This document shows positions 26,569-63,180 of a DNA stretch of 64,000 nucleotides, piece by piece. Numbering within the stretch: position 1 is the stretch's first letter; every line of letters begins with the position of its first letter. Both the position numbers and the translations under genes were made by a program. The notes beneath the pieces are model-generated. The model was not told where the DNA came from. It did not search any database and saw nothing but the letters and a program-made list of their open reading frames with translations. The stretch lies in NCBI RefSeq assembly GCF_055900595.2, contig NZ_CM148325.1. One strand, given 5' to 3'.

Positions 26569-26587
26569 TAGACAGGAGACAGTCACA

Positions 26588-29270: not shown

Positions 29271-29712
29271 GCTGAATGCCATGACCGCGGCCTACCGGCG
29301 GAGCGATACAGCGTGAGGCAACTAAAGCGGCGTCAGAAATCAGCTTTAAGTTCGCATTCCTGTTTATCGTGACAGAAATGATAGTGCAGGGAAATACGGC
29401 GTCACCAGGAACCATCCCGAAACGGCTGGAGCATCTGCGGGGTGCTCTGGAAGCGGTGTTCCCACGACTATCAAGGCCGAGGGCTGTTAAGGTATCAAAA
29501 ACCCGTTATCCGGTGAAACACAGTGCTGCCCCGCTTAAGTGACGGCATTGTGTTTCTGACTGGCCTTAACTTTCCCTGAATCTCTGACGATCCTCACCAT
29601 TGATATTTTCTTCATTCCTCACCAGAGAAATAAAAAATCACTATACTCATCAAAATATGATGATTACCTTTATTCAGGTGATCACCTTACTATTTTATAC
29701 GGAAAATAAATC

Positions 29713-44251: not shown

Positions 44252-44253
44252 GA

Positions 44254-47335: not shown

Positions 47336-50300
47336 TTATCCAGCGATAACATAACTCCTAAGGTCATTACCCGGGGCAACAGCTCGCGCTCGCGTGTTTG
47401 CCAGCCGTTCAACTTGCTGCGGTACTCGCAGAGCAAAATCAAAGAAGGTGTCTTCAATACAGCGCCAGTAGCTAAGCCCCATGTCGAGCAGGACATAATG
47501 CTGACTGCCATCGCTGAAGGTGACTGTCAGTTCTCGTCCATGCTCCGTACTCTGGTTATCCCCCGTTAACCAGCTAATTGCTCCCGGCCACGCAGGCCCC
47601 AGATATCCTTCTTCAAGTAAAGTGGTCACAACCTGCTGACGATCTTCCTCATTAAGCCACGCGTTATAGAGAGCGTTGTGTTGGCGAGAGTTGTAATCCA
47701 ATTTTTTGACGCAAACAGTGAGGCTGGCGCGTTCCGCCATTCCCTGTTCAACCAGCTCGGTTAAGATTTCACCTAACATACGCGCCGTGAATGGGCTATT
47801 AAGATAACGATCGCTGTACTCAACATGCGTTATCTCTTTGTGGCGGGTAAATGCCTGCTTCCAGCCAGCGTGCTGTTGCGTGACTAACGACCAGAAACGC
47901 GAACCAAACCCTTCCAGCGGCCCGTCCAGTTGCTCGCAGAGGTTGATGCGCACCGCCCCGGTGGGTAAGGCGGGCAGTAAATCTTCTGCACTTAAGGTCT
48001 GACCCGAGAAGGTTTTTCCGGACGTTCCTTTAAGTGTCACTACTGGTGAGGACGCACTTTGTCCCCATAATTCACCAGGTGCAACGGTAGCGCTGTCGTC
48101 TGCGGCCCACTGTTGGCTTTGCCCTTCGCGAGTCACCTGCGCAAGCCAGCGCCCCTTTCCTTGCATGAGTTGCGCAGTGGCAATGGATTTCACTTGTAAG
48201 CGTCCTCCCGGCATCGCCGCCAACGCGGAAAGCTGATGTCTGGAGCTATCAGTTAAGTTTTCCAGCGGCGTGGCCACCAGCAACTCAACATTCCCACCGG
48301 AGGAGGCAAACTGGAGCAACTCTTTAAATAATGGCCATTGGGCAAAGTCCCACTGTTCCTGCGGCCCCGCAAGAACCAGCGAGCAGGAGTCATAAATCTC
48401 GCTGTTCAGGCATTGCGCAATACGTAAACTCAGAGGGTTAGTTTCAACCCGGCTACCATCGACGAAGTACTGATATTCTGGCGCGAGGTTAAGTCGCTGC
48501 AACCGTACATTGGTAAGCAGGGTTAATGCATGGTGACGATCTAATCTGTTGACATAATGCTGACTGTCGTAGCTGAGCAAGCAGTGGTGACAGAATTTAT
48601 CGCAACTGCAATCGAGCAATTTTCTGGCGTAATTAAAGACATCAGCCCAATGGTCGATCAATTGCACTGCATAACCTGCACCACCCGCATTATTGTCGTA
48701 AATGAAGATGGAATATCCGGTATAGCCATTGATATCGCGCGCTTGCTGCGTCGTCACGCCCAGCTCAGTATTTTCGATACCCAATTTATGCGCTAACCCT
48801 TCACGCAAAGCGACCGCAAGGGAACGCGCGGCAACCTCATCACGGATCAACAGGCCATTATCATCATTGAGTTGCAGCTCAACCATATCTGTACGACTGC
48901 TATACCCCAACCACAGATCTTTATGCACATGACCGTGGCACAATTTATTGCTCCCCTGACGATCGTTACTGCCCCCTCGCAACAGGTAATGCGTATTTTC
49001 CCGCTCTGGGTTCTTTAGATTTTCAGGGGTACGCTGGGGTTGAGTTTGAGATTCTGCCCGACCACATGAGAGGCAAATTGCGTAGCCGTGCCCAAATTCC
49101 CCTTCACTGAAGTGGAACAATTCCCCACTATGGCTAAAACGGTAACGTCCTAGCCCAGCATCGGGTAAAGAAACCCACACCGAAGACGGTACAAGAACAC
49201 GTGGATCTTTCCAGGGAAGTTGTGCAGGCATGGATACATCATTATGTGCCTGATAACGAATATCTGTCGCAAAACCAACAGGCTGTAAATAACGCTTCAC
49301 ATCAAGTTGCTGTATATCCGCTTTGCAGTGACTACATTCGACAGGATGGGTAGCACTGGTTGCCCCCGCACCACATTTACGGCAATGCCAGAACCACGGA
49401 ATATGATGATCGCCTGACAGCTCCTGCCCGCTGGCAAGTACCTTGCCAAGCATAATGCCCGAGGAACGATATACTTTTCCGCCCAATACCACATCTGCAC
49501 CAGGCGCATACTCGCGTAATGCTGTAGGTAGATCACGGCAGGGCAATTTTTCAATACGACGAGAAAAGCTTTCTCCCCCTTCATTAGGGTCAGCCTGAGT
49601 AGCTTTTATTGCGCGACGTTTTTCCAGCTCATCTGCCGTCAGATAATTGAAATTGACGACACCAACCGGGAAACCATGCCCTGGCAGGAACGCTTCACTA
49701 ATGAGTTTAGAAAACAGATATGCACCGCGATAATCACGAAGCTGATAAGCGATGGCTTTACCTGCTGGCGTTTCTTCCCACGCGCTGTTATCCGCTTTCA
49801 ACGCTTCGATATTTTCCAACAGTATCGCAAGTTGGCTTCTCCAGCGGATATCAACCTGCTGCATCATTGCTTGTGTGCGGGTCAAGAGCTGGGTTGCCGT
49901 CAATGACATCAGGACGGTTCCCTGAGTAAGGCGTTTAAGTTTATCCGCCAGCTGATCGGCCTGGTTATTTAACCAATGGAGAAAACGAAGACACTGGCTC
50001 TCATCACCTTCAAAGAACCATTTGCAACTCAGTTTTGTCGCATCAGGAACTTCAGCTCGTAAAAACAGACCTAAAACCAGGGCATTAACATGTCGTTGAA
50101 CAATACTGCTGCTCCCAAAACGAACCCGTGGCGCACTGGCAGTAGTGTTGAACGCCCAGAGGGGGTCTTTGAATACCTCCATTCCATGCGCCGTGTTTTT
50201 ACATAACGTAATGGCAGCAGATGCACTCTCTCCACGTCGACCCGCGCGGCCTGCACGCTGCAAATAATTTGCCGGAGCTGGAGGAACGTTGTTCATTGCC

Positions 50301-53300
50301 ACCAAACTCATACCACCAATGTCCACCCCCATCTCCATGGTCGTGGAGCAGTTCAGCACATTAACTTTGCCTGACTTAAATTGTTTTTCATTAAACTGGT
50401 TCTGCTCAGGCGTTCTCTGCGCAGAGTGTTCCTCCAGACGATACCAGCTATCTTTCAGGGCCAGTCGGTCGCTGCGAGTAGACCATAATCCTTCCTCGCG
50501 GGCATGTTGAATCAGCGCATTACTTTCCAGCCACTCCAGGCGTTCTTCTCGGGCGATTTCTCCACCACCAGACAAACGCCAGTGACGTACAGGAAGCTCA
50601 GGCATTTCAATCAACACTGCTTTTTCAGGTGCAATTTCTTTGCTACCCGGCAAATACGGAGAGTATCCCAGCAACGTGACGTCTAACGCACGTCGAGTAT
50701 AGGGGCAACGCCACACTTGCTTTGGACTGTAAAATTCAGCCTGTTGTTTAATATCCAGCTGATAACCCGACTCAAACTGACGTAAGCAGGGTCGAATTGC
50801 ATCCCAGACCTCAATCATTAAGTGGTTAACTAACGATTTCCAGTGAGCCTGCTCAGGTTGTATTGCCGGAAAGACTGCAATTAATAGCTTAATGACCCGG
50901 TTATAATGGCGATCGCGTATTTGTGGCCAAAGTTGATCACGTTTCTGCCCTTTGTTTTTTTTATCTGGACCCTGGAGCATTTTTACCGGGAAACGAGCCC
51001 CCATCCAGCGAGGGTATTGCTCGTTTTCGTAAAAAACGGCACTGTTTTCACGTATAAAGAAATCAAGAGTAATCTTCAATAAATTACGCCATTCCGCTAA
51101 TTGCTTATCGGGATCGGGTAATAATGTCTTCCAGTCCTGCGGGCAGGTTGTAACTTTATCAATAAATGGATAGTGAATGGCTACCAGACCCAGACTTTCG
51201 AGGGTCCAGGCATTTTTAGGGCGGCGACCAAATTCACTGTATAAACAAAAATCTGCAAACTGTTGTTTAGTAAGATCAAGCCCAGACAATTCTTTAAAAC
51301 TGCCTCTCATTCTATCGGCAAGGTCCACACTGCCAACCAGCTGTTCAGACAGTGTTTGCCATGACATGGTTTTCTTCTGCTGATTGCCAGAGTTAGCCTG
51401 GAGTATTTGCATCGCTTCAGCATGATCCGGGCTTAAGGAACTCACCATCGGCTCGATAATTTTAAGTGCCTGAATGTCCGCCGGGCTAAGCTCTTCATTA
51501 GCAACCATCGATTTTTTCAGCGCGTCAATAGAGTTTTTTAAAGGAAGGATAGAAAACTGGGCAATAAAACTCTCTAACAATGCGCAGTGTGCCGGGCTGA
51601 GCTTTGCTGATGGCTCATTAATATTGGCCAACTCCTGGTAGCAAAGAGCTCGCAACGTCGCTTTATCGGCATCCTGCTGTAAGCGGGCAGAAATGCGGGC
51701 AGTGCCCTGACGTGAATCCGTAAAGGTGAGCAGACGTCGACCATTAAACGGTCCTAACTGCTCTTCTCTTGTCTGCGGTAATGGTGAAAACTCCAGCAGA
51801 GTAGGAATAATTTCATTTAAAAAAAAGGGCGCGCCAAGTCGAAGCGGACGGAATAAAGGATTATTTTTTCGTTGGGTGTCACCACAGCAAACACAAGCAA
51901 AGGAATTATTACGTCCCTCACCTCGAGATTCCGGTCTTAACAGGTTTATTTCATAGTGCTTTTGCGCTTCACTATCAATTTTCCCCGCCGTCGTTTCTTC
52001 CAGTGAAATGATATATTTTTCACCATCGCTCGCAATCAGACGATCAAATTGAGAGTTATTGTCTAATTCGTCGTTGTCTTCATCTTCAGAATAAACATCT
52101 ACATCAAGAGCAAACTCATCCACTTCGGCAGCGGCGGGTTGCGCTACCAACCAGTTCGTTCCATCACCGCGCATCTCCTCTTTGGCAGACAAATAAGCTG
52201 AACCACACCCGGAGCAACGTAAAACTTCAAATACCGGCGCACCACAGTCACAATATTGGCGCTGCTCAAACCATACCTGACCAAATGGCCAGTCACTCTG
52301 ATTTAATTCATGTGCTTTATGTGAGCATTGTTTGTTTGAACATGCCCATAGACCCGCCAGTGTTCTGATAAATCCATGCATACGTAATGGCGTAAAAGCC
52401 AGTTCACCTTCTCGCGATCTTGCCATTAGATCGAGGAGTTGCAGTAGCTCACGGTGATTAATATCTGGCCAGGTTCTTCTGGCAACATTGAGCAACTCAC
52501 TCAAACGTACTGCCTGCCGTCCGGGATGAGTTAACGCCTGACGCAATTGCTGGGCCACACGGTAATGACAAAGCTGTTGGTAAAGATCCTGAGGGCTCAG
52601 AGATTTAAGAGAAGTTAAAGATGTGGGGTATTCATGACGAATCAGCGACTCCGATACCCGCGGTATTTGTCGATAGCCGCGAACCACTTTGACATCACGT
52701 TCTGTAACGCCCGCAAGATCAGCGACAAATTTAGCAAGCTCCTTATTACCTTCAGGAGAGTCTTCACCAATAGTGGCAGAGGTCGCGATAATCTGCACAG
52801 GTTTATCTGTGCCAGGTCCAACATTGAAAGCCTGCATAACACGACGTAAAAGCAGCGCTAACTCAGCAGCCTGAGAACCAATATAACTATGGGCTTCATC
52901 CAGGACGATATACTTTAACATCCCCTGAGACTTTTCGATGATTGGGGCATCTTTACGACGAATCAGCATATATTCCAGCATGGTGGTATTCGTCACCATG
53001 ATGGAAGGTGGTGCTTCGTAAATGGCTTCCCGACTCAAAGCTTGTTCAGGTACTTTCAACTGATCTTCCTGAACTTCGTATTTGGTATGCCGGGTTTCGC
53101 CATTATATAGCGCGAAGCGTATTTTCCCCTTAAATCCGCGCGTCCATTCGCGAAGCCGCTCCTGTTGGCTGTTAATTAATGCATTTAACGGATACAAGAA
53201 AATAGCTTGTGTCCCTGTTAGTGACTGACGGGTCGATTTTTGCTGACGAATAAGATCTTCCAGGACCGGTACCATAAAGCATTCTGTTTTCCCGGATCCC

Positions 53301-53659
53301 GTACCGCTGCTCACTAACAAGGATTTTTTGTCTTCCAGAATTGTTCGCCACGCAGTGAGTTGATGACGAAATGGCACTGGCGCTTTGCTCAATGCATCAA
53401 CCTGCGGGCTGGAGATCAGCTTGTCCCGCAAATCCTCCATTGTTTCATCCGCAGGCATCCAGCCGAATGTACTTTCGAATACCGGGCCTGCAAGCAGTGA
53501 CCCCTCCTGACCGGGAGGCTGAAAATATTGTGATTCCAGATAATGAGTCAACGACTTGCTCCGCAATGCCAACTGACTTACCACCGACCTCACCGCACGC
53601 TGATGAAGCTGATTTAGAAGTGGCGCATAATGCAGTTGCTGAACGTCCATCAATGACAT
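47336..53659 (-). CDS. druE: Giant (2107 aa) DEAH helicase with DUF1998-like Zn-ribbon C-terminal region; Druantia DruE-like
   Basis: Motif I LVSSGTGSGKTECFMVPVL, motif II YIVLDEAHSY, motif VI QRAGRAGRRGE; Cys clusters CRKCGAG...CSHCK, CLSCGR, CSCDKFCHHC; start overlaps upstream gene by 10 bp. Confidence 0.7.
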   Translation of the reverse strand: MSLMDVQQLHYAPLLNQLHQRAVRSVVSQLALRSKSLTHYLESQYFQPPGQEGSLLAGPVFESTFGWMPADETMEDLRDKLISSPQVDALSKAPVPFRHQLTAWRTILEDKKSLLVSSGTGSGKTECFMVPVLEDLIRQQKSTRQSLTGTQAIFLYPLNALINSQQERLREWTRGFKGKIRFALYNGETRHTKYEVQEDQLKVPEQALSREAIYEAPPSIMVTNTTMLEYMLIRRKDAPIIEKSQGMLKYIVLDEAHSYIGSQAAELALLLRRVMQAFNVGPGTDKPVQIIATSATIGEDSPEGNKELAKFVADLAGVTERDVKVVRGYRQIPRVSESLIRHEYPTSLTSLKSLSPQDLYQQLCHYRVAQQLRQALTHPGRQAVRLSELLNVARRTWPDINHRELLQLLDLMARSREGELAFTPLRMHGFIRTLAGLWACSNKQCSHKAHELNQSDWPFGQVWFEQRQYCDCGAPVFEVLRCSGCGSAYLSAKEEMRGDGTNWLVAQPAAAEVDEFALDVDVYSEDEDNDELDNNSQFDRLIASDGEKYIISLEETTAGKIDSEAQKHYEINLLRPESRGEGRNNSFACVCCGDTQRKNNPLFRPLRLGAPFFLNEIIPTLLEFSPLPQTREEQLGPFNGRRLLTFTDSRQGTARISARLQQDADKATLRALCYQELANINEPSAKLSPAHCALLESFIAQFSILPLKNSIDALKKSMVANEELSPADIQALKIIEPMVSSLSPDHAEAMQILQANSGNQQKKTMSWQTLSEQLVGSVDLADRMRGSFKELSGLDLTKQQFADFCLYSEFGRRPKNAWTLESLGLVAIHYPFIDKVTTCPQDWKTLLPDPDKQLAEWRNLLKITLDFFIRENSAVFYENEQYPRWMGARFPVKMLQGPDKKNKGQKRDQLWPQIRDRHYNRVIKLLIAVFPAIQPEQAHWKSLVNHLMIEVWDAIRPCLRQFESGYQLDIKQQAEFYSPKQVWRCPYTRRALDVTLLGYSPYLPGSKEIAPEKAVLIEMPELPVRHWRLSGGGEIAREERLEWLESNALIQHAREEGLWSTRSDRLALKDSWYRLEEHSAQRTPEQNQFNEKQFKSGKVNVLNCSTTMEMGVDIGGMSLVAMNNVPPAPANYLQRAGRAGRRGESASAAITLCKNTAHGMEVFKDPLWAFNTTASAPRVRFGSSSIVQRHVNALVLGLFLRAEVPDATKLSCKWFFEGDESQCLRFLHWLNNQADQLADKLKRLTQGTVLMSLTATQLLTRTQAMMQQVDIRWRSQLAILLENIEALKADNSAWEETPAGKAIAYQLRDYRGAYLFSKLISEAFLPGHGFPVGVVNFNYLTADELEKRRAIKATQADPNEGGESFSRRIEKLPCRDLPTALREYAPGADVVLGGKVYRSSGIMLGKVLASGQELSGDHHIPWFWHCRKCGAGATSATHPVECSHCKADIQQLDVKRYLQPVGFATDIRYQAHNDVSMPAQLPWKDPRVLVPSSVWVSLPDAGLGRYRFSHSGELFHFSEGEFGHGYAICLSCGRAESQTQPQRTPENLKNPERENTHYLLRGGSNDRQGSNKLCHGHVHKDLWLGYSSRTDMVELQLNDDNGLLIRDEVAARSLAVALREGLAHKLGIENTELGVTTQQARDINGYTGYSIFIYDNNAGGAGYAVQLIDHWADVFNYARKLLDCSCDKFCHHCLLSYDSQHYVNRLDRHHALTLLTNVRLQRLNLAPEYQYFVDGSRVETNPLSLRIAQCLNSEIYDSCSLVLAGPQEQWDFAQWPLFKELLQFASSGGNVELLVATPLENLTDSSRHQLSALAAMPGGRLQVKSIATAQLMQGKGRWLAQVTREGQSQQWAADDSATVAPGELWGQSASSPVVTLKGTSGKTFSGQTLSAEDLLPALPTGAVRINLCEQLDGPLEGFGSRFWSLVTQQHAGWKQAFTRHKEITHVEYSDRYLNSPFTARMLGEILTELVEQGMAERASLTVCVKKLDYNSRQHNALYNAWLNEEDRQQVVTTLLEEGYLGPAWPGAISWLTGDNQSTEHGRELTVTFSDGSQHYVLLDMGLSYWRCIEDTFFDFALRVPQQVERLANTRARAVAPGNDLRSYVIAG

Positions 53660-56600
53660 ACTCCTGCTTGTTCAAAATAATATTGATAGATTACCCCTAA
53701 TTGCTGTGGGGCTTGCTGATAGTGAAATTCAAAAAGCGCAGACAGTTGATGTATCAGGTTATTATCTTTTTGGGTTAACAGCGCTGCGACTAACATCAAA
53801 TTAAAACGTTTTTCAAGCCGTGAGTGATATTTATCTTCAATCCAAAGCTTATTAAAAACAGATTTTAACTCTGGAGTAATAGCACTAGACCAAAGTTCTT
53901 TAGGGAAGATACTGATACGCCCAAAGCTGTCGGGGTTCCTTAATAGCATCTGTTTAGCTTCATTAAACTGCTCACGACTAACAGTTGGCAATACATCACA
54001 ACCGGTTGGTAGGCTCTCACTATATGTAAGTAACATATTCGCAATGGGAGCCAGCCGACGATCGATATGTGCACGATGGTTCATAAAAGCAATAAAGGGT
54101 TGCAATATATGTAATGCTAATGTTTTATCGTTAATCTGTTTTTCCAGATAAGCCCAACATTTTTGGAAAACATCTTTCCAGATTGAAACGGGAATCCATC
54201 CCCATGAAAAGGGTAATTCTTCCTGTATATCATAAATCGTATCGCTATCACCAGAAAGACATGATGATATTAACAACTGAACAACCACGCGGTAATTACT
54301 CGAAATACCTCTGAACAAGTCCAGATCCAGCAAGGATAAGCCATTATTCATTTTGTATTTCTTAATATACTCTGTTAATAAACAGCAATAATTTTGCAAT
54401 GGGTTGTTATCTATTTCAAAAATTAGCTCATTAAATTTTTTTTTGCGCTGTTCTGGGTCTGCTTCGCATAGAGCATTTAGTAATAAATCATTTGTCTGCA
54501 ATACAGGTAGCATCCATTTAATTACTGGTGCAATGCGAGCTGTACCATCAAGTTTTCCCACAATTAACCATGGACTATCCTGAACATTCAGAGCTGAAAG
54601 ATCATAAGCAAATTCATCTTTTTTTAGCAATGATTTGTGTAAGCCAGGATCCTTAAGAGAAATAGCATCAACAACCAGTTCGTCTATTCTATTTGCAGGA
54701 AAAACAACAGAATTTTTTATATCAACCAGCAACCCTTGATCGTGTTCAATAAAACTACCATCGTAGCGTTTAATATTGAGTGTTGCTTTATCCTTTCCAA
54801 ATCTGTCAGAGTAAAAATCAACACATAATGTACTATTGCTGTTCCATGCACATGCCAGCATAGAATTTAGCAAATTATAGTTCTCATAAAGTGAAATTTG
54901 TTGTAATTTGTCATTGCGTCCTGATAAAAGAGGAAGGTCGGCATGTAAATAACGGAATTTTTCAGCTACTGGATTTTCATCCAATAACTCGATATTAAGA
55001 TATCCTCTTCCAGCACATGACATGGTTAATAACTCAGCATCTATTCCATGCAAATGTGCTATAGATGCCACACCATCAAAATGAACAGAACCATCATTAG
55101 TTACAAATCGGCCACCGCTAACCGGCTTAGGTAATAATAGTTTAAGATTAGAACCATCTTTCCAGGAGACCCGTAAATCAACGGTATTTTCCAGCATCTG
55201 CGATGAATTATAATAAATAGCACACTCGTTTTGTGAATAATCGGACTTAAGTGTTACTTTTTCATTGTTTGTATATTTGTCAATTCTAGTATCCGTTATA
55301 CCAGAAAGCATTATGATGCCTTGCTGAGCACTCTCAGGTATAATATTAATATCGAAGTCTGCTGGTAAAACTACAACTTTACCGCTAAATAAAACCTCAT
55401 CATTAACTATTCGTCTGACTTCTATCTGTCCTTTTGGCATTTCTGATGCGACAGAATACCAGGCATTGTTACCTGAACGAATGGAACGCCAAAAAAGTTC
55501 TTTCTCCGGTACAATGCCATATTGCAGATCCTTTTTCCAACCGATCTTCGGCCAGGCTCGATGGACAGGATAATCCGATTTAACCAGTTCAACTTCTGTC
55601 GATTTAATATAATATTCAATCGCAGAATCATAAAGTTGCTGGGTGCGAATTGTACAAACTGCACCATCATGTAAAACAACACTAAATACTCCACTTATTT
55701 TAGTTAAGCTGCGTTCACTGTTTTTCAGCAACCTTGGGATATCAAACTCACCTTCTCCACTAATATCTAAATGGCTATTTTTCGGTAGCGAAATAAACAG
55801 AGCATTTAGCCTGGAACTCACAGACCCCATACCGACAAGTTTTAGCTGCGATTCACTCTCATTCATCGCTTCAAAAACCCAGGGGAGTTCTTCAGTAAGT
55901 TCATAACCGCCTTTTGGAATTGTGTGGCCTAACAGAATTGGACCTTCATGAAGCGACAACGAGATTTCGGCCATTGCATCTGCACCAGAGAGCTTTTGCA
56001 TCGCAATAGGTAATAACTCGACCCGCCAATCTTGCTGCTCATAACGGCTTAGCATTGCCAACCTTGCCCCGCCATTTCTCCATTTTCCTGAAATGATGAG
56101 TCGGGTCTGCTCCGGCTGAATATTGCATTCAAACAAAGAGGTTAACTGTTCTGTACGCATTGTGGCCGGGAATCGGAACCGGGCATCACAATACCAACTG
56201 TCATCAACATCGACCCAGATTCTTTCAACCTGAAGACTACTTGCACTGCGTATTTCAGAAGATTGAGAAAGTAATCGCCTTACAATCTCTGCAGCATTCG
56301 CTTCGGGGAGAACGAGTGGAAGTTGAAGATGCCAGTCTGGAGAGAGCTTACGTAATGCAGAAACGGGATCACTGCTTTGAGGTGGATGCTCACTAAGTAA
56401 TCGGCAGAGAGTCTCGCAGAATTCACCGGCTATTTCATAGACCAGTTCGTTTTGCATTGTGACAGGAATCGTATCGCCTAATTTTTGTGCAATTTTAGCG
56501 GCAGGATATTGAGATGCTTGCCCACGAAGCGCCTGATATATCCTTCTGAAATAGGTAATCAAATAACCGCTCTCATTTTCAATCATGCGGATAGGTAAAC

Positions 56601-57009
56601 CACCTTCACAAGCCAGTGTATGCAGATAACCCGAAGCTTGCCCCAGGTTTCTTATCTTTCTTTTCCAGTAGCGAATGCCATCATTAACCAGCTTCTGTCG
56701 ATGAACATACGGAACTTTCCAGTCAATAGAATCTAAAATTGTGTCCCATTTAGGGTGTCCGACCGTATGAGTCCGGCGGATAAACTCTGCGGCATATATG
56801 CTAAATAGAACATCGCTATAGGAAATGAATATCGTTCTTGGATAACTACGGGGGGCATATGTACGCAGTAGTTCTGCCAAACTTTCGTACTCTGTATCAG
56901 TACAACGGTAAGCATATAACGCCCGTCCATCAGCTCCGGATAATGAACGGCGACTAAAAAACATGTTAAGCCATTGCAAAAGTGGGTTAACTGGAGTTTT
57001 CACAAGCAA
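53650..57009 (-). CDS. druH: Large (1119 aa) protein without recognisable catalytic motifs; Druantia type III DruH-like partner of DruE
   Basis: Long uninterrupted ORF, no P-loop or nuclease motif visible; translationally coupled to the DruE-like gene; size and pairing match what is described for DruH. Confidence 0.55.
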   Translation of the reverse strand: MLVKTPVNPLLQWLNMFFSRRSLSGADGRALYAYRCTDTEYESLAELLRTYAPRSYPRTIFISYSDVLFSIYAAEFIRRTHTVGHPKWDTILDSIDWKVPYVHRQKLVNDGIRYWKRKIRNLGQASGYLHTLACEGGLPIRMIENESGYLITYFRRIYQALRGQASQYPAAKIAQKLGDTIPVTMQNELVYEIAGEFCETLCRLLSEHPPQSSDPVSALRKLSPDWHLQLPLVLPEANAAEIVRRLLSQSSEIRSASSLQVERIWVDVDDSWYCDARFRFPATMRTEQLTSLFECNIQPEQTRLIISGKWRNGGARLAMLSRYEQQDWRVELLPIAMQKLSGADAMAEISLSLHEGPILLGHTIPKGGYELTEELPWVFEAMNESESQLKLVGMGSVSSRLNALFISLPKNSHLDISGEGEFDIPRLLKNSERSLTKISGVFSVVLHDGAVCTIRTQQLYDSAIEYYIKSTEVELVKSDYPVHRAWPKIGWKKDLQYGIVPEKELFWRSIRSGNNAWYSVASEMPKGQIEVRRIVNDEVLFSGKVVVLPADFDINIIPESAQQGIIMLSGITDTRIDKYTNNEKVTLKSDYSQNECAIYYNSSQMLENTVDLRVSWKDGSNLKLLLPKPVSGGRFVTNDGSVHFDGVASIAHLHGIDAELLTMSCAGRGYLNIELLDENPVAEKFRYLHADLPLLSGRNDKLQQISLYENYNLLNSMLACAWNSNSTLCVDFYSDRFGKDKATLNIKRYDGSFIEHDQGLLVDIKNSVVFPANRIDELVVDAISLKDPGLHKSLLKKDEFAYDLSALNVQDSPWLIVGKLDGTARIAPVIKWMLPVLQTNDLLLNALCEADPEQRKKKFNELIFEIDNNPLQNYCCLLTEYIKKYKMNNGLSLLDLDLFRGISSNYRVVVQLLISSCLSGDSDTIYDIQEELPFSWGWIPVSIWKDVFQKCWAYLEKQINDKTLALHILQPFIAFMNHRAHIDRRLAPIANMLLTYSESLPTGCDVLPTVSREQFNEAKQMLLRNPDSFGRISIFPKELWSSAITPELKSVFNKLWIEDKYHSRLEKRFNLMLVAALLTQKDNNLIHQLSALFEFHYQQAPQQLGVIYQYYFEQAGVCH

Positions 57010-57220
57010 CCTGCCTTCCTTTGATACAATTCGTAACAGGTTACTATCATCATAAAAAAGCTCAACCCGATGAACTCGCTAAAAATGAGACAAATCATTT
57101 ATATCTCGAAAAAACTTGTTACAATCATGAGCGCTACACCGAACTTAACCATATAAATTATGTGCGTTTTGTTTATTTTTTAAACAATTACAACTATCCA
57201 TTATTTACACAGGTATCAAA

Positions 57221-58873
57221 ATGTTAGCGCAGCTTTTTGAGCAGTTGTTTCAATCGATAGACTCTACACTGATCACCAATATTTTCATCTGGGCTGTTAT
57301 ATTCGTATTTTTATCAGCGTGGTGGTGTGACAAAAAAAATATACATAGTAAGTTTAGAGAATATGCTCCAACCTTAATGGGGGCATTAGGTATTCTGGGT
57401 ACTTTCATTGGTATTATTATTGGGTTACTCAATTTTAATACTGAAAGTATTGATACCAGCATCCCCGTATTATTAGGCGGCCTAAAAACAGCATTCATTA
57501 CAAGCATTGTAGGTATGTTTTTTGCCATTTTATTTAATGGAATGGATGCTTTCTTTTTTGCCAATAAACGAAGTGCGTTAGCAGAAAATAACCCTGAATC
57601 TGTTACACCTGAACATATCTATCATGAATTAAAAGAGCAGAACCAGACTCTGACTAAATTAGTCTCGGGTATTAACGGTGATAGTGAAGGTTCTCTTATT
57701 GCTCAAATAAAATTACTACGTACTGAGATTAGCGATTCCTCGCAGGCACAATTAGCTAATCACACTCATTTCAGTAATAAGCTTTGGGAACAACTTGAAC
57801 AATTTGCAGATCTAATGGCAAAAGGTGCTACAGAACAAATTATTGATGCTTTACGACAAGTCATTATTGATTTTAATGAAAATTTAACTGAACAGTTTGG
57901 TGAAAACTTTAAAGCACTTGATGCCTCTGTAAAAAAACTTGTTGAGTGGCAGGAAAATTATAAAACGCAAGTTGAGCTGATGTCAGAACAATATCAACAA
58001 AGTGTCGAGTCTCTGGTTGAAACAAAAACTGCGGTTGCCGGGATTTGGGAAGAATGTAAAGAAATTCCTCTGGCTATGTCTGAACTGCGTGAAGTGCTTC
58101 AGGTGAACCAACATCAAATCAGCGAACTCTCCCGCCATTTAGAAACCTTTGTCGCTATCCGCGATAAAGCTACAACCGTATTACCTGAAATACAGAACAA
58201 AATGGCTGAAGTGGGTGAACTGCTGAAATCCGGAGCTGCAAATGTTAGTGCATCTCTTGAGCAAACCAGCCAGCAAATACTTCTTAATGCAGATTCAATG
58301 CGCGTGGCCCTGGATGAAGGTACCGAAGGATTCAGACAATCGGTTACCCAAACACAACAAGCATTTGCCTCGATGGCACATGATGTCAGCAATTCCTCCG
58401 AAACTCTAACCAGCACGTTAGGTGAAACAATTACTGAAATGAAACAAAGTGGTGAAGAATTCCTGAAGTCACTAGAGTCGCACTCGAAAGAATTGCATAG
58501 AAATATGGAACAAAATACGACTAATGTAATTGATATGTTCAGTAAGACTGGTGAAAAGATTAACCATCAACTATCCAGTAATGCCGATAATATGTTTGAT
58601 TCAATCCAGACATCATTTGATAAGGCAAGTGCAGGGCTGACTTCTCAAGTCAGAGAATCAATTGAAAAATTTGCTCTATCCATCAACGAGCAGTTACATG
58701 CTTTTGAGCAAGCAACTGAACGTGAGATGAACCGTGAAATGCAATCATTAGGTAATGCTCTGCTTTCAATCAGCAAAGGTTTTGTCGGTAACTATGAAAA
58801 ACTTATTAAAGATTACCAAATAATTATGGGGCAGTTACAAGCATTAATTTCTGCTAATAAACATCGAGGGTAA
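57221..58873 (+). CDS. zorA: MotA/ExbB-like membrane protein with long C-terminal coiled-coil tail; Zorya ZorA-like
   Basis: N-terminal TM helices (LITNIFIWAVIFVFLSAWW, LMGALGILGTFIGIIIGLL, AFITSIVGMFFAILFNG) followed by ~400 aa of heptad-like Q/E/L-rich sequence. Confidence 0.75.
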   Translation: MLAQLFEQLFQSIDSTLITNIFIWAVIFVFLSAWWCDKKNIHSKFREYAPTLMGALGILGTFIGIIIGLLNFNTESIDTSIPVLLGGLKTAFITSIVGMFFAILFNGMDAFFFANKRSALAENNPESVTPEHIYHELKEQNQTLTKLVSGINGDSEGSLIAQIKLLRTEISDSSQAQLANHTHFSNKLWEQLEQFADLMAKGATEQIIDALRQVIIDFNENLTEQFGENFKALDASVKKLVEWQENYKTQVELMSEQYQQSVESLVETKTAVAGIWEECKEIPLAMSELREVLQVNQHQISELSRHLETFVAIRDKATTVLPEIQNKMAEVGELLKSGAANVSASLEQTSQQILLNADSMRVALDEGTEGFRQSVTQTQQAFASMAHDVSNSSETLTSTLGETITEMKQSGEEFLKSLESHSKELHRNMEQNTTNVIDMFSKTGEKINHQLSSNADNMFDSIQTSFDKASAGLTSQVRESIEKFALSINEQLHAFEQATEREMNREMQSLGNALLSISKGFVGNYEKLIKDYQIIMGQLQALISANKHRG

Positions 58874-58879
58874 TCGATC

Positions 58880-59587
58880 ATGGATAAGATTATAGGGAAA
58901 CAATTACCTAAAAAAGATCAAGATAATGAACACTGGGTATCCATGTCAGACCTAATGGCAGGGCTGATGATGGTTTTTATGTTCATATCTATTGCTTATA
59001 TGCACTACGTACGTATTGAAAAAGAAAAAATTAAAGAAGTTGCCGTAGCCTACGAGAATGCTCAGTTACAGCTTTATAATGCTCTGGATATTGAGTTTGC
59101 AAAGGATTTGCAAGACTGGGATGCAGAGATCGATAAGCAGACTCTGGAGGTTCGATTTAAATCACCGGATGTTTTATTTGGCTTAGGAAGCACAGAGCTT
59201 AAACCAAAGTTTAAACTCATTCTTGACGACTTCTTTCCTCGCTACCTAAAAGTTCTTGATAATTATCAAGAACATATTACTGAAGTCCGCATTGAAGGTC
59301 ACACAAGTACTGACTGGACTGGAACAACGAATCCTGATATTGCTTATTTTAATAATATGGCACTATCACAAGGTCGTACACGTGCAGTATTACAATACGT
59401 TTATGATATAAAAAATATCGCGACACACCAACAATGGGTTAAAAGTAAATTTGCCGCAGTAGGTTATTCATCTGCACATCCCATTCTTGATAAAACCGGC
59501 AAGGAGGATCCTAATCGCTCTCGTCGTGTCACCTTCAAAGTTGTAACAAATGCCGAGTTGCAGATTAGAAAGATTATTCAGGAGTAA
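58880..59587 (+). CDS. zorB: MotB-like protein with single TM helix and OmpA-type peptidoglycan-binding domain; Zorya ZorB-like
   Basis: TM segment MSDLMAGLMMVFMFISIAY, C-terminal OmpA-family motif (NMALSQGRTRAVLQYV); 6 bp after zorA stop. Confidence 0.75.
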   Translation: MDKIIGKQLPKKDQDNEHWVSMSDLMAGLMMVFMFISIAYMHYVRIEKEKIKEVAVAYENAQLQLYNALDIEFAKDLQDWDAEIDKQTLEVRFKSPDVLFGLGSTELKPKFKLILDDFFPRYLKVLDNYQEHITEVRIEGHTSTDWTGTTNPDIAYFNNMALSQGRTRAVLQYVYDIKNIATHQQWVKSKFAAVGYSSAHPILDKTGKEDPNRSRRVTFKVVTNAELQIRKIIQE

Positions 59588-59590
59588 GAG

Positions 59591-60694
59591 ATGAAATTAT
59601 CTATCGACATTTCAGAACTTATTCAATTAGGGAAGAAAATGTTACCAGAAGGAGTCGATTTTTTTCTGGATGAATCCCCTATTGACTTTGATCCTATAGA
59701 TATTGAGTTATCCACGGGTAAAGAAGTTAGTATCGAAGATCTTGACCCTGGTAGCGGGCTTATCTCTTATCATGGCCGCCAGGTTCTTTTATATATTAGG
59801 GACCATTCAGGGCGTTATGATGCGGCTATCATCGATGGCGAAAAAGGAAAACGTTTTCATATTGCCTGGTGCAGAACTCTTGATGAAATGCGCCATAAAA
59901 ATCGATTTGAAAGGTATCATGCAACTAACCGCATAGATGGTTTATTCGAAATTGATGATGGTTCAGGTCGGAGCCAGGATGTTGATTTACGGGTATGTAT
60001 GAATTGTCTGGAACGACTTAATTACAAAGGAAGTATTGATAAACAAAGGAAAAGAGAGATTTTTAAATCATTCTCATTAAATGAGTTTTTTTCAGATTAT
60101 AGTACCTGTTTTCGTCATATGCCTAAGGGTATCTATGACAAAACAAATAGTGGGTATGTCGAAAACTGGAAAGATATATCAAAATCAATACGAGAAAAGG
60201 CCAAGTATACTTGTAATGATTGTGGTGTGAATTTATCAACCGCCAAAAACTTGTGCCATGTCCATCATAAAAATGGCATCAAATATGATAATCACCATGA
60301 AAACCTTCTTGTTCTGTGTAAGGATTGCCATCGTAAACAGCCCCTCCATGAAGGTATATTCGTTACCCAAGCTGAGATGGCTATCATTCAACGTTTACGT
60401 TCCCAACAAGGGTTATTAAAAGCCGAATCCTGGAATGAAATATATGACCTGACTGATCCATCAGTACATGGTGATATTAATATGATGCAACATAAAGGCT
60501 TTCAACCTCCTGTTCCTGGGTTAGATCTTCAAAACTCAGAACATGAAATTATTGCAACCGTAGAAGCAGCATGGCCAGGCCTTAAAATTGCAGTTAACCT
60601 TACTCCCGCCGAAGTCGAAGGATGGAGAATATATACCGTGGGTGAGCTGGTTAAAGAAATACAAACAGGAGCCTTTACGTCAGCAACGTTGTAA
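59591..60694 (+). CDS. zorE: HNH endonuclease-domain protein; Zorya type II effector ZorE-like
   Basis: HNH motif CNDCGVNLSTAKNLCHVHHKNGIKYDNHHENLLVLCKDCH plus an upstream CMNCLERLNYKG Zn-ribbon; 3 bp after zorB stop. Confidence 0.75.
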   Translation: MKLSIDISELIQLGKKMLPEGVDFFLDESPIDFDPIDIELSTGKEVSIEDLDPGSGLISYHGRQVLLYIRDHSGRYDAAIIDGEKGKRFHIAWCRTLDEMRHKNRFERYHATNRIDGLFEIDDGSGRSQDVDLRVCMNCLERLNYKGSIDKQRKREIFKSFSLNEFFSDYSTCFRHMPKGIYDKTNSGYVENWKDISKSIREKAKYTCNDCGVNLSTAKNLCHVHHKNGIKYDNHHENLLVLCKDCHRKQPLHEGIFVTQAEMAIIQRLRSQQGLLKAESWNEIYDLTDPSVHGDINMMQHKGFQPPVPGLDLQNSEHEIIATVEAAWPGLKIAVNLTPAEVEGWRIYTVGELVKEIQTGAFTSATL

Positions 60695-60705
60695 ATTCCG
60701 AAACT

Positions 60706-60729
60706 CCGTGAAAGTTAAGACTTTCACGG
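60706..60729 (+). terminator. Hairpin after zorE (9-bp stem CCGTGAAAG/CTTTCACGG, 6-nt loop)
   Basis: Perfect inverted repeat 12 bp downstream of the zorE stop; the downstream tract is A/T-rich but not a clean T-run. Confidence 0.45.
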
Positions 60730-60803
60730 AAGATAAATAAAATTTTCCTGATTTGTGACTCAAATTATAAAAGTCGTTTATGGCATAACTTGTCTGTTTT
60801 TTT

Positions 60804-60822
60804 GGTGTAATAGGTATAAAGG
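60804..60822. promoter_or_regulatory. Second NanR operator-like element (GGTGTAATAGGTATAAAGG) upstream of the nanM-like remnant
   Basis: Near-copy of the GGTATA-repeat element at 25413-25433, here ~80 bp upstream of the nanM-like start. Confidence 0.5.
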
Positions 60823-60903
60823 CATATGCTATGGTTAGCCTTATATTTAAAACTTTCCTCATACGGGTGAAGGTTAAAGCTTGGTAGATAGGTTACAGTC
60901 ACA

Positions 60904-61513
60904 ATGAATAAAGCAATAACGGTGCTTGCTATAATGATGGCTTCATTTTCCGTAAATGCGTATGTATTACCGGAAACGCCTGTGCCATTTAAAAGTGGTA
61001 CCGGAGCAATTGATAACAACACTGTCTACATTGGTTTAGGTAGCGCAGGTACGGCATGGTACAAGCTGGAGAAACAGACCAAAGATAAAAAAATGGACAG
61101 CGTTAGCTGCATTTCCTGGTGGACCGAGAGATCAAGCAACTTCTGCATTTATTGATGGCAATCTGTATGTGTTTGACGGCATTGGCAAAAACAGTGAGGG
61201 CTTGACTCAGGTATTTAATGACGTTCACAAATACAACCTCAAAACCAATAGCTGGGTTAAATTGATGTCGCACGCGCCGATGGGCATGGCGGGTCATGTG
61301 ACATTTGTACACAACGGCAAGGCTTATGTTACTGGCGGTGTTAACCAGAATATCTTCAATGGCTATTTTGAAGATCTTAACGAAGCTGGAAAAGATTCAG
61401 CGTACCGGTCACCGGAGAACTGGACGACGGCACTGCGAAGCAGTCATTTCAGTCGGGGGATGATTGTAGACAAATTTGTTGACGCTATTTTGCGGTTTTG
61501 GCGTGAAGGGTGA
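60904..61513 (+). pseudogene. Degraded nanM paralogue fused to a nanS-like 3' tail (frameshifted nanM'-nanS' remnant)
   Basis: 60904-61399 aligns by eye to nanM 26588-27082 with substitutions and an extra A in a poly-A run (frameshift); at 61400 it switches to sequence matching the nanS 3' end (28614-28738), including a 12-bp deletion. Confidence 0.7.
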
Positions 61514-61520
61514 GCGTTCA

Positions 61521-62171
61521 TTAATTTGATTTATTCGCATCCATCAACGCTTTTAACTGCTCCGGCGAAAACGGTGGTTTGCGTCGGTGCAACATCGCAT
61601 GGCAATTAGGGCACACAGGAAGCAAATCATTAACTGGACCCAGCTGGTAATCCTCTTTAATGGCTGAAAGCGGGACCAGGTGATGCACATGGATAAAGCC
61701 TTCAGCGATATCACCATAGATCTTCACCAGATCAACGCCGCATACTTTGCACTGGCATCCATGATGTTCGACCGCTTTATCTCGGGCCTTTTTATCGCGT
61801 TCATAGCGGTTTACTGTCACTTTTATCGCCGCACCTTCAAGGTATGTCTCCTGCGACGGCAACTCATCCGGGAACAGAACGTCGGCTATGGGAGCCGCAG
61901 CGGCTTTATCCTGATGAATATGAAATCCCTGCTCTATGAGTAGTTTGACGCATTTAGATTTTATTCCGCCGGTGAAATCCGCAGGGGTAAATTGCGTCCC
62001 CGTCATCAATGTCGCTGCGATGCCAGCAATCGCCTTCGAGGGGTAACGTCGGCCATGATATTCAATCTCATACAACCGCGCAGGCTGGAACTGATGAGTT
62101 TCTCCCGCATCCCATAAATGGATAGCTTCGATGATATACCGCCGCGGAAGATGATCAGGGAGTTTATTCAT
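61521..62171 (-). CDS. HNH endonuclease-domain protein (216 aa) with N-terminal ~130-aa domain of unknown type
   Basis: C-terminal HNH/Zn-finger motif CQCKVCG...HVHHLVPLS...CPNCH; the last 40 bp of the gene are also present as a copy at 28744-28792. Confidence 0.65.
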   Translation of the reverse strand: MNKLPDHLPRRYIIEAIHLWDAGETHQFQPARLYEIEYHGRRYPSKAIAGIAATLMTGTQFTPADFTGGIKSKCVKLLIEQGFHIHQDKAAAAPIADVLFPDELPSQETYLEGAAIKVTVNRYERDKKARDKAVEHHGCQCKVCGVDLVKIYGDIAEGFIHVHHLVPLSAIKEDYQLGPVNDLLPVCPNCHAMLHRRKPPFSPEQLKALMDANKSN

Positions 62172-62250: not shown

Positions 62251-63180
62251 TTGAACAGCAGAAAATTTGCGAGCATGATCGCAATTATTTCACTGCCAGG
62301 GATATCAATGGCTTCCAGTAAATCGCTACAGCAGGCAATTGCCAATATAAAAATCTGGCACAAGGGTGAACAGCGCGCGCCGCATAAGCCATTGTTATTG
62401 CTATACGTATTAGCGGGATACCTGAATGGACATCCGCGCCTTTTCGATTATGGCTCGGAAATCTACGAACCTCTGCACAGTTTACTGGAACGTTTTGGGC
62501 CACAGCGTTCACAGTACCGACCTGATATGCCGTTCTGGCGATTACAAGGCGACGGATTCTGGCAATTACACAATGCCGAGCTTTGCTCAACAGCAGGGAG
62601 CAGCCGACAACCGCCAGTGAAGGAACTGAACGAATACCACGTTGCAGGCGGTTTCGATGAACAGCACTACGCCCTGGTAACCGGCAATAAAAAACTCATC
62701 AATACTCTGGCGCAACAGATACTCGAAGCGCACTTCACCGAGAGTATTCAGGAAGAAATTGCTGACGAGCTGGGTTTTGATCTCCAGCAAATCCGTAAAC
62801 AGCGCGACCCGTTATTTCGCAAAAATGTATTACGCGCTTATAAATACCAGTGCGCGATATGTGGCTTTAATATGCGCCACGATGACACCACCGTCGCGTT
62901 GGAAGCGGCGCATATAAAATGGAAACAGCACGGCGGTCCTTGTGAAATTCCTAATGGCCTGGCGCTTTGCGCAATTCACCATAAAGCCTTTGATAAAGGA
63001 TCGATTGGCCTGGATGAAAATATGCGGGTACTGGTCTCGGATGCGGTAAACGGCGGAGGGATCGTTGAGAAACTATTCTGGGATTTTGACGGGAAAACTA
63101 TTGCGTTGCCGCAGGTGCGTAAAAATTACCCTTATGAGGGGTTTGTGGAGTGGCATCGGAAAGAGGTTTTTAGGGGGTGA
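62251..63180 (+). CDS. HNH endonuclease-domain protein (309 aa) with ~200-aa N-terminal domain
   Basis: HNH motif CAICGFNMRHDDTTVALEAAHIKWKQHGG...NGLALCAIHHKAFD; divergent from the 216-aa HNH gene across an 80-bp intergenic region. Confidence 0.65.
   Translation: MNSRKFASMIAIISLPGISMASSKSLQQAIANIKIWHKGEQRAPHKPLLLLYVLAGYLNGHPRLFDYGSEIYEPLHSLLERFGPQRSQYRPDMPFWRLQGDGFWQLHNAELCSTAGSSRQPPVKELNEYHVAGGFDEQHYALVTGNKKLINTLAQQILEAHFTESIQEEIADELGFDLQQIRKQRDPLFRKNVLRAYKYQCAICGFNMRHDDTTVALEAAHIKWKQHGGPCEIPNGLALCAIHHKAFDKGSIGLDENMRVLVSDAVNGGGIVEKLFWDFDGKTIALPQVRKNYPYEGFVEWHRKEVFRG

What the first reader, a model, noticed from the sequence alone, without database searches (positions are those of the whole stretch)
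57221..60694. Zorya type II-like operon (ZorA MotA-like, ZorB OmpA-domain, ZorE HNH nuclease)
Seen in sequence: three tightly spaced plus-strand genes: a 550-aa protein with MotA/ExbB-like N-terminal TM helices and a long coiled-coil-like tail, a 235-aa single-pass protein with an OmpA-type peptidoglycan-binding motif, and a 367-aa protein with a clear HNH motif. Established knowledge: Zorya type II = ZorA, ZorB, ZorE, where ZorAB is a proton-channel-like stator homologue and ZorE an HNH nuclease. The segment is visibly more AT-rich than the flanking core genes, consistent with horizontal acquisition.
Basis: partly seen in the sequence, partly recalled or inferred. Interest (0 to 1): 0.6.

Follow-up and report, generated by a model that had tools for sequence, protein, structure and literature searches.

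The report
Known E. coli type II Zorya operon
These three genes are an intact copy of the well-studied E. coli type II Zorya anti-phage system (ZorA, ZorB, ZorE). It is found in about one in ten E. coli genomes and is already annotated as such, so the finding is correct but ordinary.

Summary
Three co-directional ORFs lie at 57221-58873 (550 aa), 58880-59587 (235 aa) and 59591-60694 (367 aa). Each passes NCBI's curated equivalog cut-off for ZorA2, ZorB2 or ZorE, and PADLOC type II Zorya profiles are the best hits for all three. The DNA occurs in 593 of 5426 complete E. coli genomes, where RefSeq already names it zorA2/zorB2/zorE.

The proteins are 99.1%, 99.6% and 98.1% identical to the E. coli ATCC 8739 system that has been tested experimentally. 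All 17 published functional residues are present at the same numbering.

- The flanks are not core genes. The operon lies in the published Zorya II / Druantia III / ARMADA II defence array.
- Pfam gives no significant HNH hit. PHROGs profiles, the sequence motif and a structure search all confirm the HNH fold.

The most likely mechanism, taken from the literature, is a ZorA5B2 proton-driven motor that senses phage attack on the envelope and recruits the ZorE nickase.

The only mildly new point is that ZorE's unassigned C-terminal extension is homologous to the last domain of ArmC, encoded in the same island, and has a Vsr-like nuclease fold.

Novelty: already known. Interest: low.

The parts
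57010..57220 (.). 211-bp AT-rich divergent intergenic region between druH (-) and zorA (+). It presumably holds the zorABE promoter. Candidate sigma-70 sites on the + strand are at 57021-57050 and 57098-57125.
   Evidence: Sequence read. Promoter-like sites are listed but are not more frequent than in shuffles (13 found, 15.0 expected), so the promoter position is inferred. The region is 99.05% identical to the same spacer in ATCC 8739 and Sakai. Divergent transcription of zorABE and druHE is stated in 10.1101/2025.09.22.677730.
57221..58873 (+). zorA2: 550-aa inner-membrane MotA/ExbB-like subunit with a roughly 440-aa helical cytoplasmic tail.
   Evidence: NF041792 1139 bits (cut-off 700), full length 1-550. 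PADLOC ZorA2 E 2.6e-302. Pfam MotA_ExbB at aa 51-110. PDB 8VVI chain F (S. kujiense type II ZorA) E 7e-38. 545/550 identical to ATCC 8739 ZorA.
58880..59587 (+). zorB2: 235-aa single-pass MotB-like subunit with the ion-carrying Asp24 and a C-terminal OmpA-type peptidoglycan-binding domain.
   Evidence: NF041787 444 bits (cut-off 400). PADLOC ZorB2 E 2.2e-104. Pfam OmpA at aa 99-213. PDB 8VVI chain A E 1.5e-52. D24, H141, S143, R215 and R230 are all present. 234/235 identical to ATCC 8739 and 235/235 to Sakai.
59591..60694 (+). zorE: 367-aa effector with three parts. These are an N-terminal Zn-binding domain (the preprint's DUF8245), a central HNH (beta-beta-alpha-Me) nuclease at about aa 185-262, and a C-terminal Vsr-like domain at about aa 277-360.
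60705..60730 (+). Perfect 11-bp hairpin starting 10 nt after the zorE stop codon. It is a possible transcript-end or stabilising structure. It has no adjoining U-run, so it is not a classical intrinsic terminator.
   Evidence: RNA fold of 60690-60890: z = -2.73 against shuffles, and the hairpin is in both the MFE and centroid structures. The consensus terminator scan found nothing on the + strand. Function is inferred only.
60884..61399 (+). Fragment of nanM (5' part). It is a hitch-hiking pseudogene that marks the distal edge of the zor-dru-arm block.
   Evidence: 93.6% identical over 516 bp to the intact nanM 5' end at 26568-27082. PGAP calls it a frameshifted Kelch-repeat pseudogene. A shorter version (36 + 245 bp) follows zorE in ATCC 8739 and Sakai.
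47336..57009 (-). Context, not part of Zorya: Druantia type III, with druH at 53650-57009 and druE at 47336-53659, transcribed divergently from zorA. It is the published synergy partner of Zorya II.
   Evidence: PADLOC DruH3 2545 bits and DruE3 2173 bits. NF038336 YjiT_fam 988 bits. Synergy is described in PMC13192584.
30877..47112 (-). Context: ARMADA type II-like operon. Genes are armA 44254-47112, armB 39329-44251, armC 32988-39329 and armD 30877-32991.
   Evidence: PADLOC hits are DrmD-like helicase, type IIG/DrmMI-like methyltransferase, DruE-like YprA helicase and GajB-like UvrD helicase. Order and sizes match the armABCD description for EDL933 OI-172. PADLOC v2.0.0 has no ARMADA model, so this assignment rests on architecture and the literature.

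Best explanation
This is an intact, almost certainly functional type II Zorya anti-phage system (zorA2-zorB2-zorE). It belongs to the conserved E. coli Zorya II / Druantia III / ARMADA II defence array.

Mechanism, taken from work on 98-99.6% identical proteins and inferred for this copy:
1. Five ZorA and two ZorB subunits form an inner-membrane 5:2 ion-driven rotary motor.
2. The ZorB OmpA-like domain holds on to peptidoglycan, and ZorB Asp24 carries protons.
3. The five ZorA C-termini bundle into a long cytoplasmic rod.
4. Phage attack on the envelope is sensed through the peptidoglycan-bound ZorB. This opens the channel, and ion flow drives ZorA rotation or rearrangement.
5. The activated complex brings cytoplasmic ZorE to the membrane.
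6. The locally concentrated ZorE HNH nuclease then nicks DNA, preferring supercoiled DNA or DNA with exposed single strands. This stops phage replication, chiefly of T7/T3-like podoviruses.

ZorE can also be used by the neighbouring Druantia III system without ZorAB.

Shown here: gene identity, intactness, conserved functional residues, the HNH fold and the genomic context. Inferred from the literature: stoichiometry, sensing, recruitment, nicking and phage range.
For: Family assignment:
- NCBIfam equivalogs are above curated cut-offs for all three proteins.
- PADLOC type II profiles are the best hits.
- PGAP gives the same names in 593 E. coli genomes.
- The exact protein sequences are on at least 1000 public contigs under these names.

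Near-identity to tested systems:
- ZorA 545/550, ZorB 234/235 and ZorE 360/367 identical to ATCC 8739.
- 545/550, 235/235 and 359/367 identical to O157:H7 Sakai.

Functional residues, all present at the published numbering (residue roles):
- ZorB: D24, H141, S143, R215, R230.
- ZorE: H90, E99, Y109, Y189, H226, K231, N234, H235, N238, L239, H247, H253.

Structure:
- The solved type II ZorA5B2 structure 8VVI matches ZorA (E 7e-38) and ZorB (E 1.5e-52).

Mechanism from the literature:
- 5:2 motor, required tail, required peptidoglycan binding, ZorE nickase activity and infection-dependent membrane recruitment: PMC11890865.
- Zorya II protects mainly against Autographiviridae in a native host: 10.1101/2025.09.22.677730.
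- ZorAB-independent use of ZorE by Druantia III: PMC13192584.

Context: the same nine-gene array as OI-172.
Against: - Nothing was tested in this particular strain.
- 13 amino-acid differences from the ATCC 8739 proteins exist. Four of the seven in ZorE cluster at aa 195-207, just before the first Zn-binding Cys pair. None is at a tested residue.
- Pfam does not call the HNH domain at significance.
- Promoter and terminator scans are no better than chance, so expression is assumed from conservation.
- The literature disagrees on the outcome. One view is direct clearance of phage DNA. The other is population-level immunity through host-chromosome nicking.
- The physical signal sensed by ZorAB is still a hypothesis.
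Confidence: 0.93

Rival explanations
1. Same genes, different mode of action. Zorya II acts mainly as an abortive or population-level system in which recruited ZorE nicks the host chromosome. The infected cell stops growing or dies instead of clearing the phage.
For: PMC11890865 reports population-wide immunity and single-strand breaks in bacterial as well as phage DNA. Purified ZorE shows no selectivity for phage DNA except at the level of susceptibility.
Against: The same paper notes that studies of type I Zorya support direct defence. [quoted passage not shown] Nothing in the sequence discriminates between the two modes.
Confidence: 0.4
2. The first two genes are a spare flagellar stator or Tol/Exb-type energiser, and the third is an unrelated HNH homing or restriction nuclease. 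On this reading it is not a defence operon.
For: Pfam sees only generic MotA_ExbB and OmpA domains. Weak NCBIfam hits to MotB, MotS and MotD exist.
Against: Mot-family models score 27-40 bits against cut-offs of 259-300, whereas ZorB2 scores 444 bits against a cut-off of 400. ZorA2 scores 1139 bits full length. The three genes co-occur as a unit in 529 genomes, and deleting any of them abolishes defence in a 98-99% identical system.
Confidence: 0.01
3. The operon is a decaying, non-functional remnant carried passively in an immobilised island.
For: The island edges carry pseudogenes: a nanM fragment, truncated nanS, and integrase and transposase fragments further on. No promoter or terminator stands out statistically.
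Against: All three ORFs are full length with no frameshifts. Every tested functional residue is conserved. The intergenic promoter region is 99% identical to that of strains in which the native operon is active.
Confidence: 0.03

Closest known systems
Type II Zorya of E. coli ATCC 8739 (system used for mutagenesis and ZorE biochemistry in PMC11890865)
   Same: Same three genes in the same order with the same lengths (550, 235, 367 aa). Identity is 99.1%, 99.6% and 98.1% at protein level and 98.2% at operon DNA level. The upstream spacer is 99% identical, and all tested functional residues are present. Druantia III lies divergently upstream and a nanM fragment follows zorE in both.
   Different: There are 13 amino-acid substitutions: 5 in ZorA, 1 in ZorB and 7 in ZorE. 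The chromosomal site also differs. Here the block lies next to nanCM and fim, and downstream in the two closest genomes come integrase fragments and, in one, P4-like satellite genes. In ATCC 8739 it lies next to cadCBA.
OI-172 of EHEC EDL933 / SpLE6 of O157:H7 Sakai (Zorya II + Druantia III + ARMADA II array; 10.1101/2025.09.22.677730)
   Same: Same nine-gene array in the same order and orientation. ZorB is identical, ZorA is 545/550 identical and ZorE 359/367. The array is also next to nanS-nanM-nanC-fim.
   Different: In Sakai nanS is intact and the post-zorE nanM fragment is shorter. Here nanS is truncated and the nanM fragment is 516 bp.
Sulfuricurvum kujiense type II ZorA5B2 cryo-EM structure (PDB 8VVI)
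   Same: Clear sequence homology: ZorA E 7e-38 over aa 42-383 and ZorB E 1.5e-52 over aa 13-234. This is the structural template for the 5:2 motor core.
   Different: The S. kujiense ZorA is 378 aa and the E. coli ZorA is 550 aa, so the cytoplasmic tail here is about 170 residues longer.
Type I Zorya (ZorABCD; PDB 8QYH/8QYK/8QYY and 8VVN)
   Same: ZorAB motor core with a peptidoglycan-binding ZorB and a tailed ZorA. The effector is recruited by ZorAB.
   Different: Only weak similarity: ZorA E 4e-5 to 3e-4 against PDB type I chains, and ZorB1 NCBIfam 33 bits against a cut-off of 400. No zorC or zorD is present. The effector here is the HNH nickase ZorE.
Flagellar MotAB and Tol/Exb 5:2 motors
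   Same: Same architecture class, with a conserved transmembrane Asp and an OmpA-like anchor.
   Different: All Mot-family models are far below their cut-offs. ZorA carries a long cytoplasmic tail, and the operon encodes a nuclease rather than motility or envelope functions.

Membership tests
Zorya type II | ZorA2 protein: family-specific full-length profile match | tested here: met
   NF041792 equivalog 1139.3 bits (cut-off 700), aa 1-550 on profile 1-550. PADLOC PDLC00638 E 2.6e-302.
Zorya type II | ZorB2 protein: family-specific profile match | tested here: met
   NF041787 equivalog 443.8 bits (cut-off 400). PADLOC PDLC00641 E 2.2e-104.
Zorya type II | ZorE protein: family-specific profile match. 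This is the gene that distinguishes type II from types I and III. | tested here: met
   NF041791 equivalog 691.3 bits (cut-off 600). PADLOC PDLC00645 E 1.9e-176.
Zorya type II | Operon layout zorA-zorB-zorE, co-directional and tightly spaced, with no zorC/zorD or zorF/zorG | tested here: met
   Gaps between genes are 6 and 3 bp. Downstream genes are a nanM fragment, an HNH gene and a phosphorothioate-dependent endonuclease, not ZorC/D/F/G.
Zorya type II | Ion-conducting Asp in the ZorB transmembrane helix (D24 in the E. coli system) | tested here: met
   D24 is present in WVSMSDLMAGL within the hydrophobic segment aa 20-44. D24N abolishes defence in the ATCC 8739 system.
Zorya type II | ZorB peptidoglycan-binding domain with residues H141, S143, R215 and R230 | tested here: met
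   All four residues are present. Pfam OmpA matches aa 99-213. Their roles are given in PMC11890865.
Zorya type II | Long helical cytoplasmic ZorA tail (aa about 106-550), required for defence | tested here: met
   There is no hydrophobic segment after aa 114. Only long-helix-type Pfam and PHROGs matches cover aa 142-543. The length equals that of the published construct. Pentameric bundling was not tested.
Zorya type II | ZorE HNH (beta-beta-alpha-Me) catalytic core with its Zn-binding cysteines | tested here: met
   [not shown]
Zorya type II | ZorA5:ZorB2 stoichiometry and ion-driven rotation | not testable with these tools
   Known only from cryo-EM of the S. kujiense homologue 8VVI.
Zorya type II | Anti-phage activity that needs all three genes | not testable with these tools
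   Shown for the ATCC 8739 system (98-99.6% identical) and for the EDL933 system, whose array is the one in O157:H7 Sakai (97.8-100% identical to Sakai). Not tested for this allele.
Flagellar MotAB / TolQR / ExbBD | Full-length match to Mot, Tol or Exb family models above curated cut-offs | tested here: not met
   MotS 39.7 bits (cut-off 264), MotB 36.4 (300), MotB-family 36.4 (259), MotD 27.2 (283). No MotA, TolQ or ExbB NCBIfam hit for ZorA.
Zorya type I / type III | ZorA1/ZorB1 or ZorA3/ZorB3 profiles as best match, plus zorC/zorD or zorF/zorG genes | tested here: not met
   The best ZorA1 profile is E 5.4e-14 and the best ZorA3 is 3e-7, against 2.6e-302 for ZorA2. NCBIfam ZorB1 scores 33 bits against a cut-off of 400. 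No such accessory genes are adjacent.

The most novel reading that the evidence does not exclude
The C-terminal extension of ZorE (aa about 277-360) is a Vsr-like PD-(D/E)xK-fold module. The 2026 preprint could not assign it to any nuclease family. It is homologous to the very last domain of ArmC, the ARMADA II YprA helicase encoded 21 kb away in the same island.

If this shared module is a common docking or DNA-structure-recognition device, it could be the physical basis for cross-talk among the three co-travelling systems. One example would be the ZorAB-independent use of ZorE by Druantia III.

The homology is well supported. The functional meaning is speculation.
Probability: 0.15. Interest if true: 0.45.

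Novelty: already known. Interest (0 to 1): 0.1.

Why it matters
For the scan, it matters mainly as a calibration point. A reader with no tools correctly recognised a type II Zorya operon from raw sequence.

Biologically the locus adds nothing new. The system, its structure, its effector activity, its island and its synergy partners are all published, and this allele is 98-99.6% identical to the tested ones.

The only item that might be worth a specialist's glance is the link between the ZorE C-terminal domain and the terminal domain of ArmC. It suggests a concrete deletion or domain-swap experiment on how the three systems of this island cooperate.

Tried and rejected
- A PDB sequence search with ZorE found nothing. 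The same search with the last 300 aa of ArmC found nothing even at E 1.
- Pfam on the last 300 aa of ArmC found nothing even at E 10.
- Promoter and terminator consensus scans showed no enrichment over shuffles and no + strand terminator after zorE.
- The window has no Rfam gathering-level match and no tRNA, so the tRNA integration site of the island lies outside the window.
- BLASTP of ZorE against DruE, DruH, ArmA and ArmB found nothing significant. The shared C-terminal module is specific to ArmC.
- Position-by-position comparison of the whole window with NZ_CP033635.1 failed in the left part because of indels. Only the 57021-60900 stretch, with 5 mismatches, was used.
- Two annotated-region runs failed on a one-base length overrun and were repeated.
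- The MotAB/Tol/Exb reading and the decayed-remnant reading were considered and rejected (see rivals).
Full report
OBSERVATION. They are separated by 6 and 3 bp.

The described features are real.
- ZorA has hydrophobic segments at aa 12-36, 48-74 and about 81-114. Pfam MotA_ExbB matches aa 51-110. The remaining roughly 440 residues give only long-helix-type matches.
- ZorB has one hydrophobic segment at aa 20-44 and a Pfam OmpA domain at aa 99-213.
- ZorE carries C208-x2-C211 ... H225-H226 ... N238 ... C243-x2-C246-H247.
- The operon is 38.1% GC against 47.4% for the window.

IDENTITY. All three proteins exceed NCBI's curated equivalog cut-offs over their full length:
- ZorA2 NF041792: 1139 bits, cut-off 700.
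- ZorB2 NF041787: 444 bits, cut-off 400.
- ZorE NF041791: 691 bits, cut-off 600.

PADLOC's type II Zorya profiles are by far the best hits, at E 2.6e-302, 2.2e-104 and 1.9e-176. Type I and type III profiles are orders of magnitude weaker.

Pfam did not call HNH at significance (HNH_3, E 0.081), so the second refutation test needed other evidence:
- 13 PHROGs HNH families match aa 185-262, with a best E of 2.7e-9.
- The Zn-binding cysteines and the catalytic His and Asn are invariant across 62 homologues at 37-85% identity.

HOW COMMON, HOW KNOWN. The 3.9-kb stretch is found in 593 of 5426 complete E. coli genomes, nearly full length in 529. RefSeq annotates it as zorA2/zorB2/zorE. The exact protein sequences sit on at least 1000 public contigs under those names. 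The best matches, at 99.9%, include strain SMS-3-5 and NZ_CP033635.1.

I fetched the loci of E. coli ATCC 8739 and O157:H7 Sakai. The ATCC 8739 Zorya II is the system used for mutagenesis and ZorE biochemistry in PMC11890865. Identities to the window's proteins are as follows:

| Protein | vs ATCC 8739 | vs Sakai |
|---|---|---|
| ZorA | 545/550 | 545/550 |
| ZorB | 234/235 | 235/235 |
| ZorE | 360/367 | 359/367 |

The operon DNA is 98.2% identical and the upstream spacer 99% identical.

All 17 residues whose mutation was reported are present at the same numbering (roles). In ZorB these are D24, H141, S143, R215 and R230. In ZorE they are H90, E99, Y109, Y189, H226, K231, N234, H235, N238, L239, H247 and H253.

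CONTEXT.
- Divergently upstream lie druH (53650-57009) and druE (47336-53659), which are Druantia type III.
- Beyond them is a four-gene operon (30877-47112): a DrmD-like helicase, a large methyltransferase, a 2113-aa YprA-type helicase and a UvrD/GajB-like helicase. Its order and sizes match the published ARMADA II armABCD.
- Downstream are a nanM fragment, a 216-aa HNH protein and a phosphorothioated-DNA-binding restriction endonuclease (NF045808, 438 bits against a cut-off of 180).
- True core genes (dha, uxu, gntP, fim, nanC, nanM) occupy about 1-27.7 kb.

This nine-gene array is the published OI-172 / SpLE6 defence island. It was reported in 426 E. coli strains, with SMS-3-5 and ATCC 8739 named as carriers. 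In my searches, 495 genomes hold at least 80% of the 24-kb stretch from armB to the end of the window, against 529 that hold zorABE.

MECHANISM (literature, inferred for this copy).
- Cryo-EM of the S. kujiense type II complex (8VVI) shows a ZorA5B2 motor. In it the ZorB Asp packs against a Ser/Thr ring, the ZorB peptidoglycan-binding domains are dimerised, and the ZorA C-termini bundle into a cytoplasmic rod. 8VVI matches ZorA here at E 7e-38 and ZorB at E 1.5e-52.
- In the ATCC 8739 system, each gene, D24, peptidoglycan binding and the tail are required for defence against T7.
- ZorE is a monomeric Mg/Mn-dependent nickase that prefers supercoiled DNA. It moves to the membrane only during infection and only when ZorAB is present.
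- In EDL933, Zorya II protects mainly against Autographiviridae.
- The 2026 preprint PMC13192584 adds that Zorya II synergises with Druantia III through RecBCD-dependent DNA intermediates. It also reports that Druantia can use ZorE without ZorAB against Bas37.
- It remains disputed whether the outcome is direct clearance of the phage or population-level immunity through host DNA damage.

SIDE OBSERVATION FOLLOWED UP. PADLOC's ZorE profile also hit the extreme C-terminus of the 2113-aa ArmC-like helicase. Three results support this link:
- BLASTP gives 35-40% identity between ZorE aa 279-347 and ArmC aa 2022-2095, at E 3e-7 to 4e-9.
- A 62-sequence ZorE profile matches the ArmC tail at hhalign probability 96.9%, E 1.4e-10.
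- ArmC shares every invariant position of the ZorE C-terminal family: W281, P307, A327-W328 and W345.

In the alignment, D289 and an acidic residue at 325 are conserved, but no (D/E)xK strand is. I therefore infer a non-catalytic or non-canonical module.

PMC13192584 describes this extension as enriched in Druantia-associated ZorE but unassigned to any nuclease family. Its main text has no occurrence of 'ArmC' or 'Vsr'. The ARMADA preprint assigns Vsr-type domains to the ArmC C-terminus, and its main text has no occurrence of 'ZorE'. The link between the two may therefore be unreported. It is a small point.

VERDICT. The feature is an already known, already annotated and experimentally characterised system. 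Interest is low.

Noticed in passing
[not shown]
   Followed up: yes
window 60884-61399 versus 26568-27082; also 61397-61567 versus 28610-28792: Directly after zorE lies a 516-bp copy of the 5' part of nanM, 93.6% identical to the intact nanM 34 kb upstream. A second short stretch is also duplicated (about 81-86% identity). The arm-dru-zor block is therefore bracketed by a diverged direct repeat of the nan region. A shortened version of the same nanM fragment follows zorE in Sakai, and also in ATCC 8739, where the island sits next to cadCBA. The fragment therefore travels with the block.
   Followed up: partly
window 47336-57009 (- strand): A complete Druantia type III system is transcribed divergently from zorA: druH (1119 aa) and druE (2107 aa), overlapping by 10 bp. 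It is the published synergy partner of Zorya II.
   Followed up: partly
window 30877-47112 (- strand): A four-gene operon matches the published ARMADA type II (armA 952 aa, armB 1640 aa, armC 2113 aa, armD 704 aa). PADLOC v2.0.0 has no ARMADA model and scatters it over DrmD, type IIG methyltransferase, DruE and GajB hits.
   Followed up: partly
window 61521-62171 (-) and 62251-63180 (+): Two further divergent nuclease genes lie just beyond the nanM fragment. One is a 216-aa HNH protein with only weak type IV restriction hits. The other is a 309-aa phosphorothioated-DNA-binding restriction endonuclease (NF045808, 438 bits against a cut-off of 180). They are probably modification-dependent restriction genes in the same island.
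   Followed up: no
window 60173-60211 (ZorE aa 195-207) and 57953-57979 (ZorA aa 245-253): The few differences from the ATCC 8739 and Sakai alleles are clustered. Four of the seven ZorE changes fall in aa 195-207, just before the first Zn-binding Cys pair. Three of the five ZorA changes fall in aa 245-253 of the tail. This could reflect a small recombination tract or local diversifying selection.
   Followed up: no
window 47336-60694: Base composition is mosaic inside the island. zorABE is 38.1% GC and druH 39.7%, whereas druE is 48.8% and the arm operon 52%.
   Followed up: no
[not shown]
   Followed up: no
window 27981-29543: At the proximal island edge, nanS is truncated and is followed by a frameshifted hypothetical gene in the closest annotated genome. 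In O157:H7 Sakai nanS is intact at the same junction.
   Followed up: no
window 57221-58873 (ZorA aa 142-543): The ZorA tail gives weak hits to phage tape-measure-protein PHROGs (E 5.9e-5 to 1.3e-3) and to apolipoprotein Pfam families. This most likely reflects long-helix composition rather than homology.
   Followed up: no
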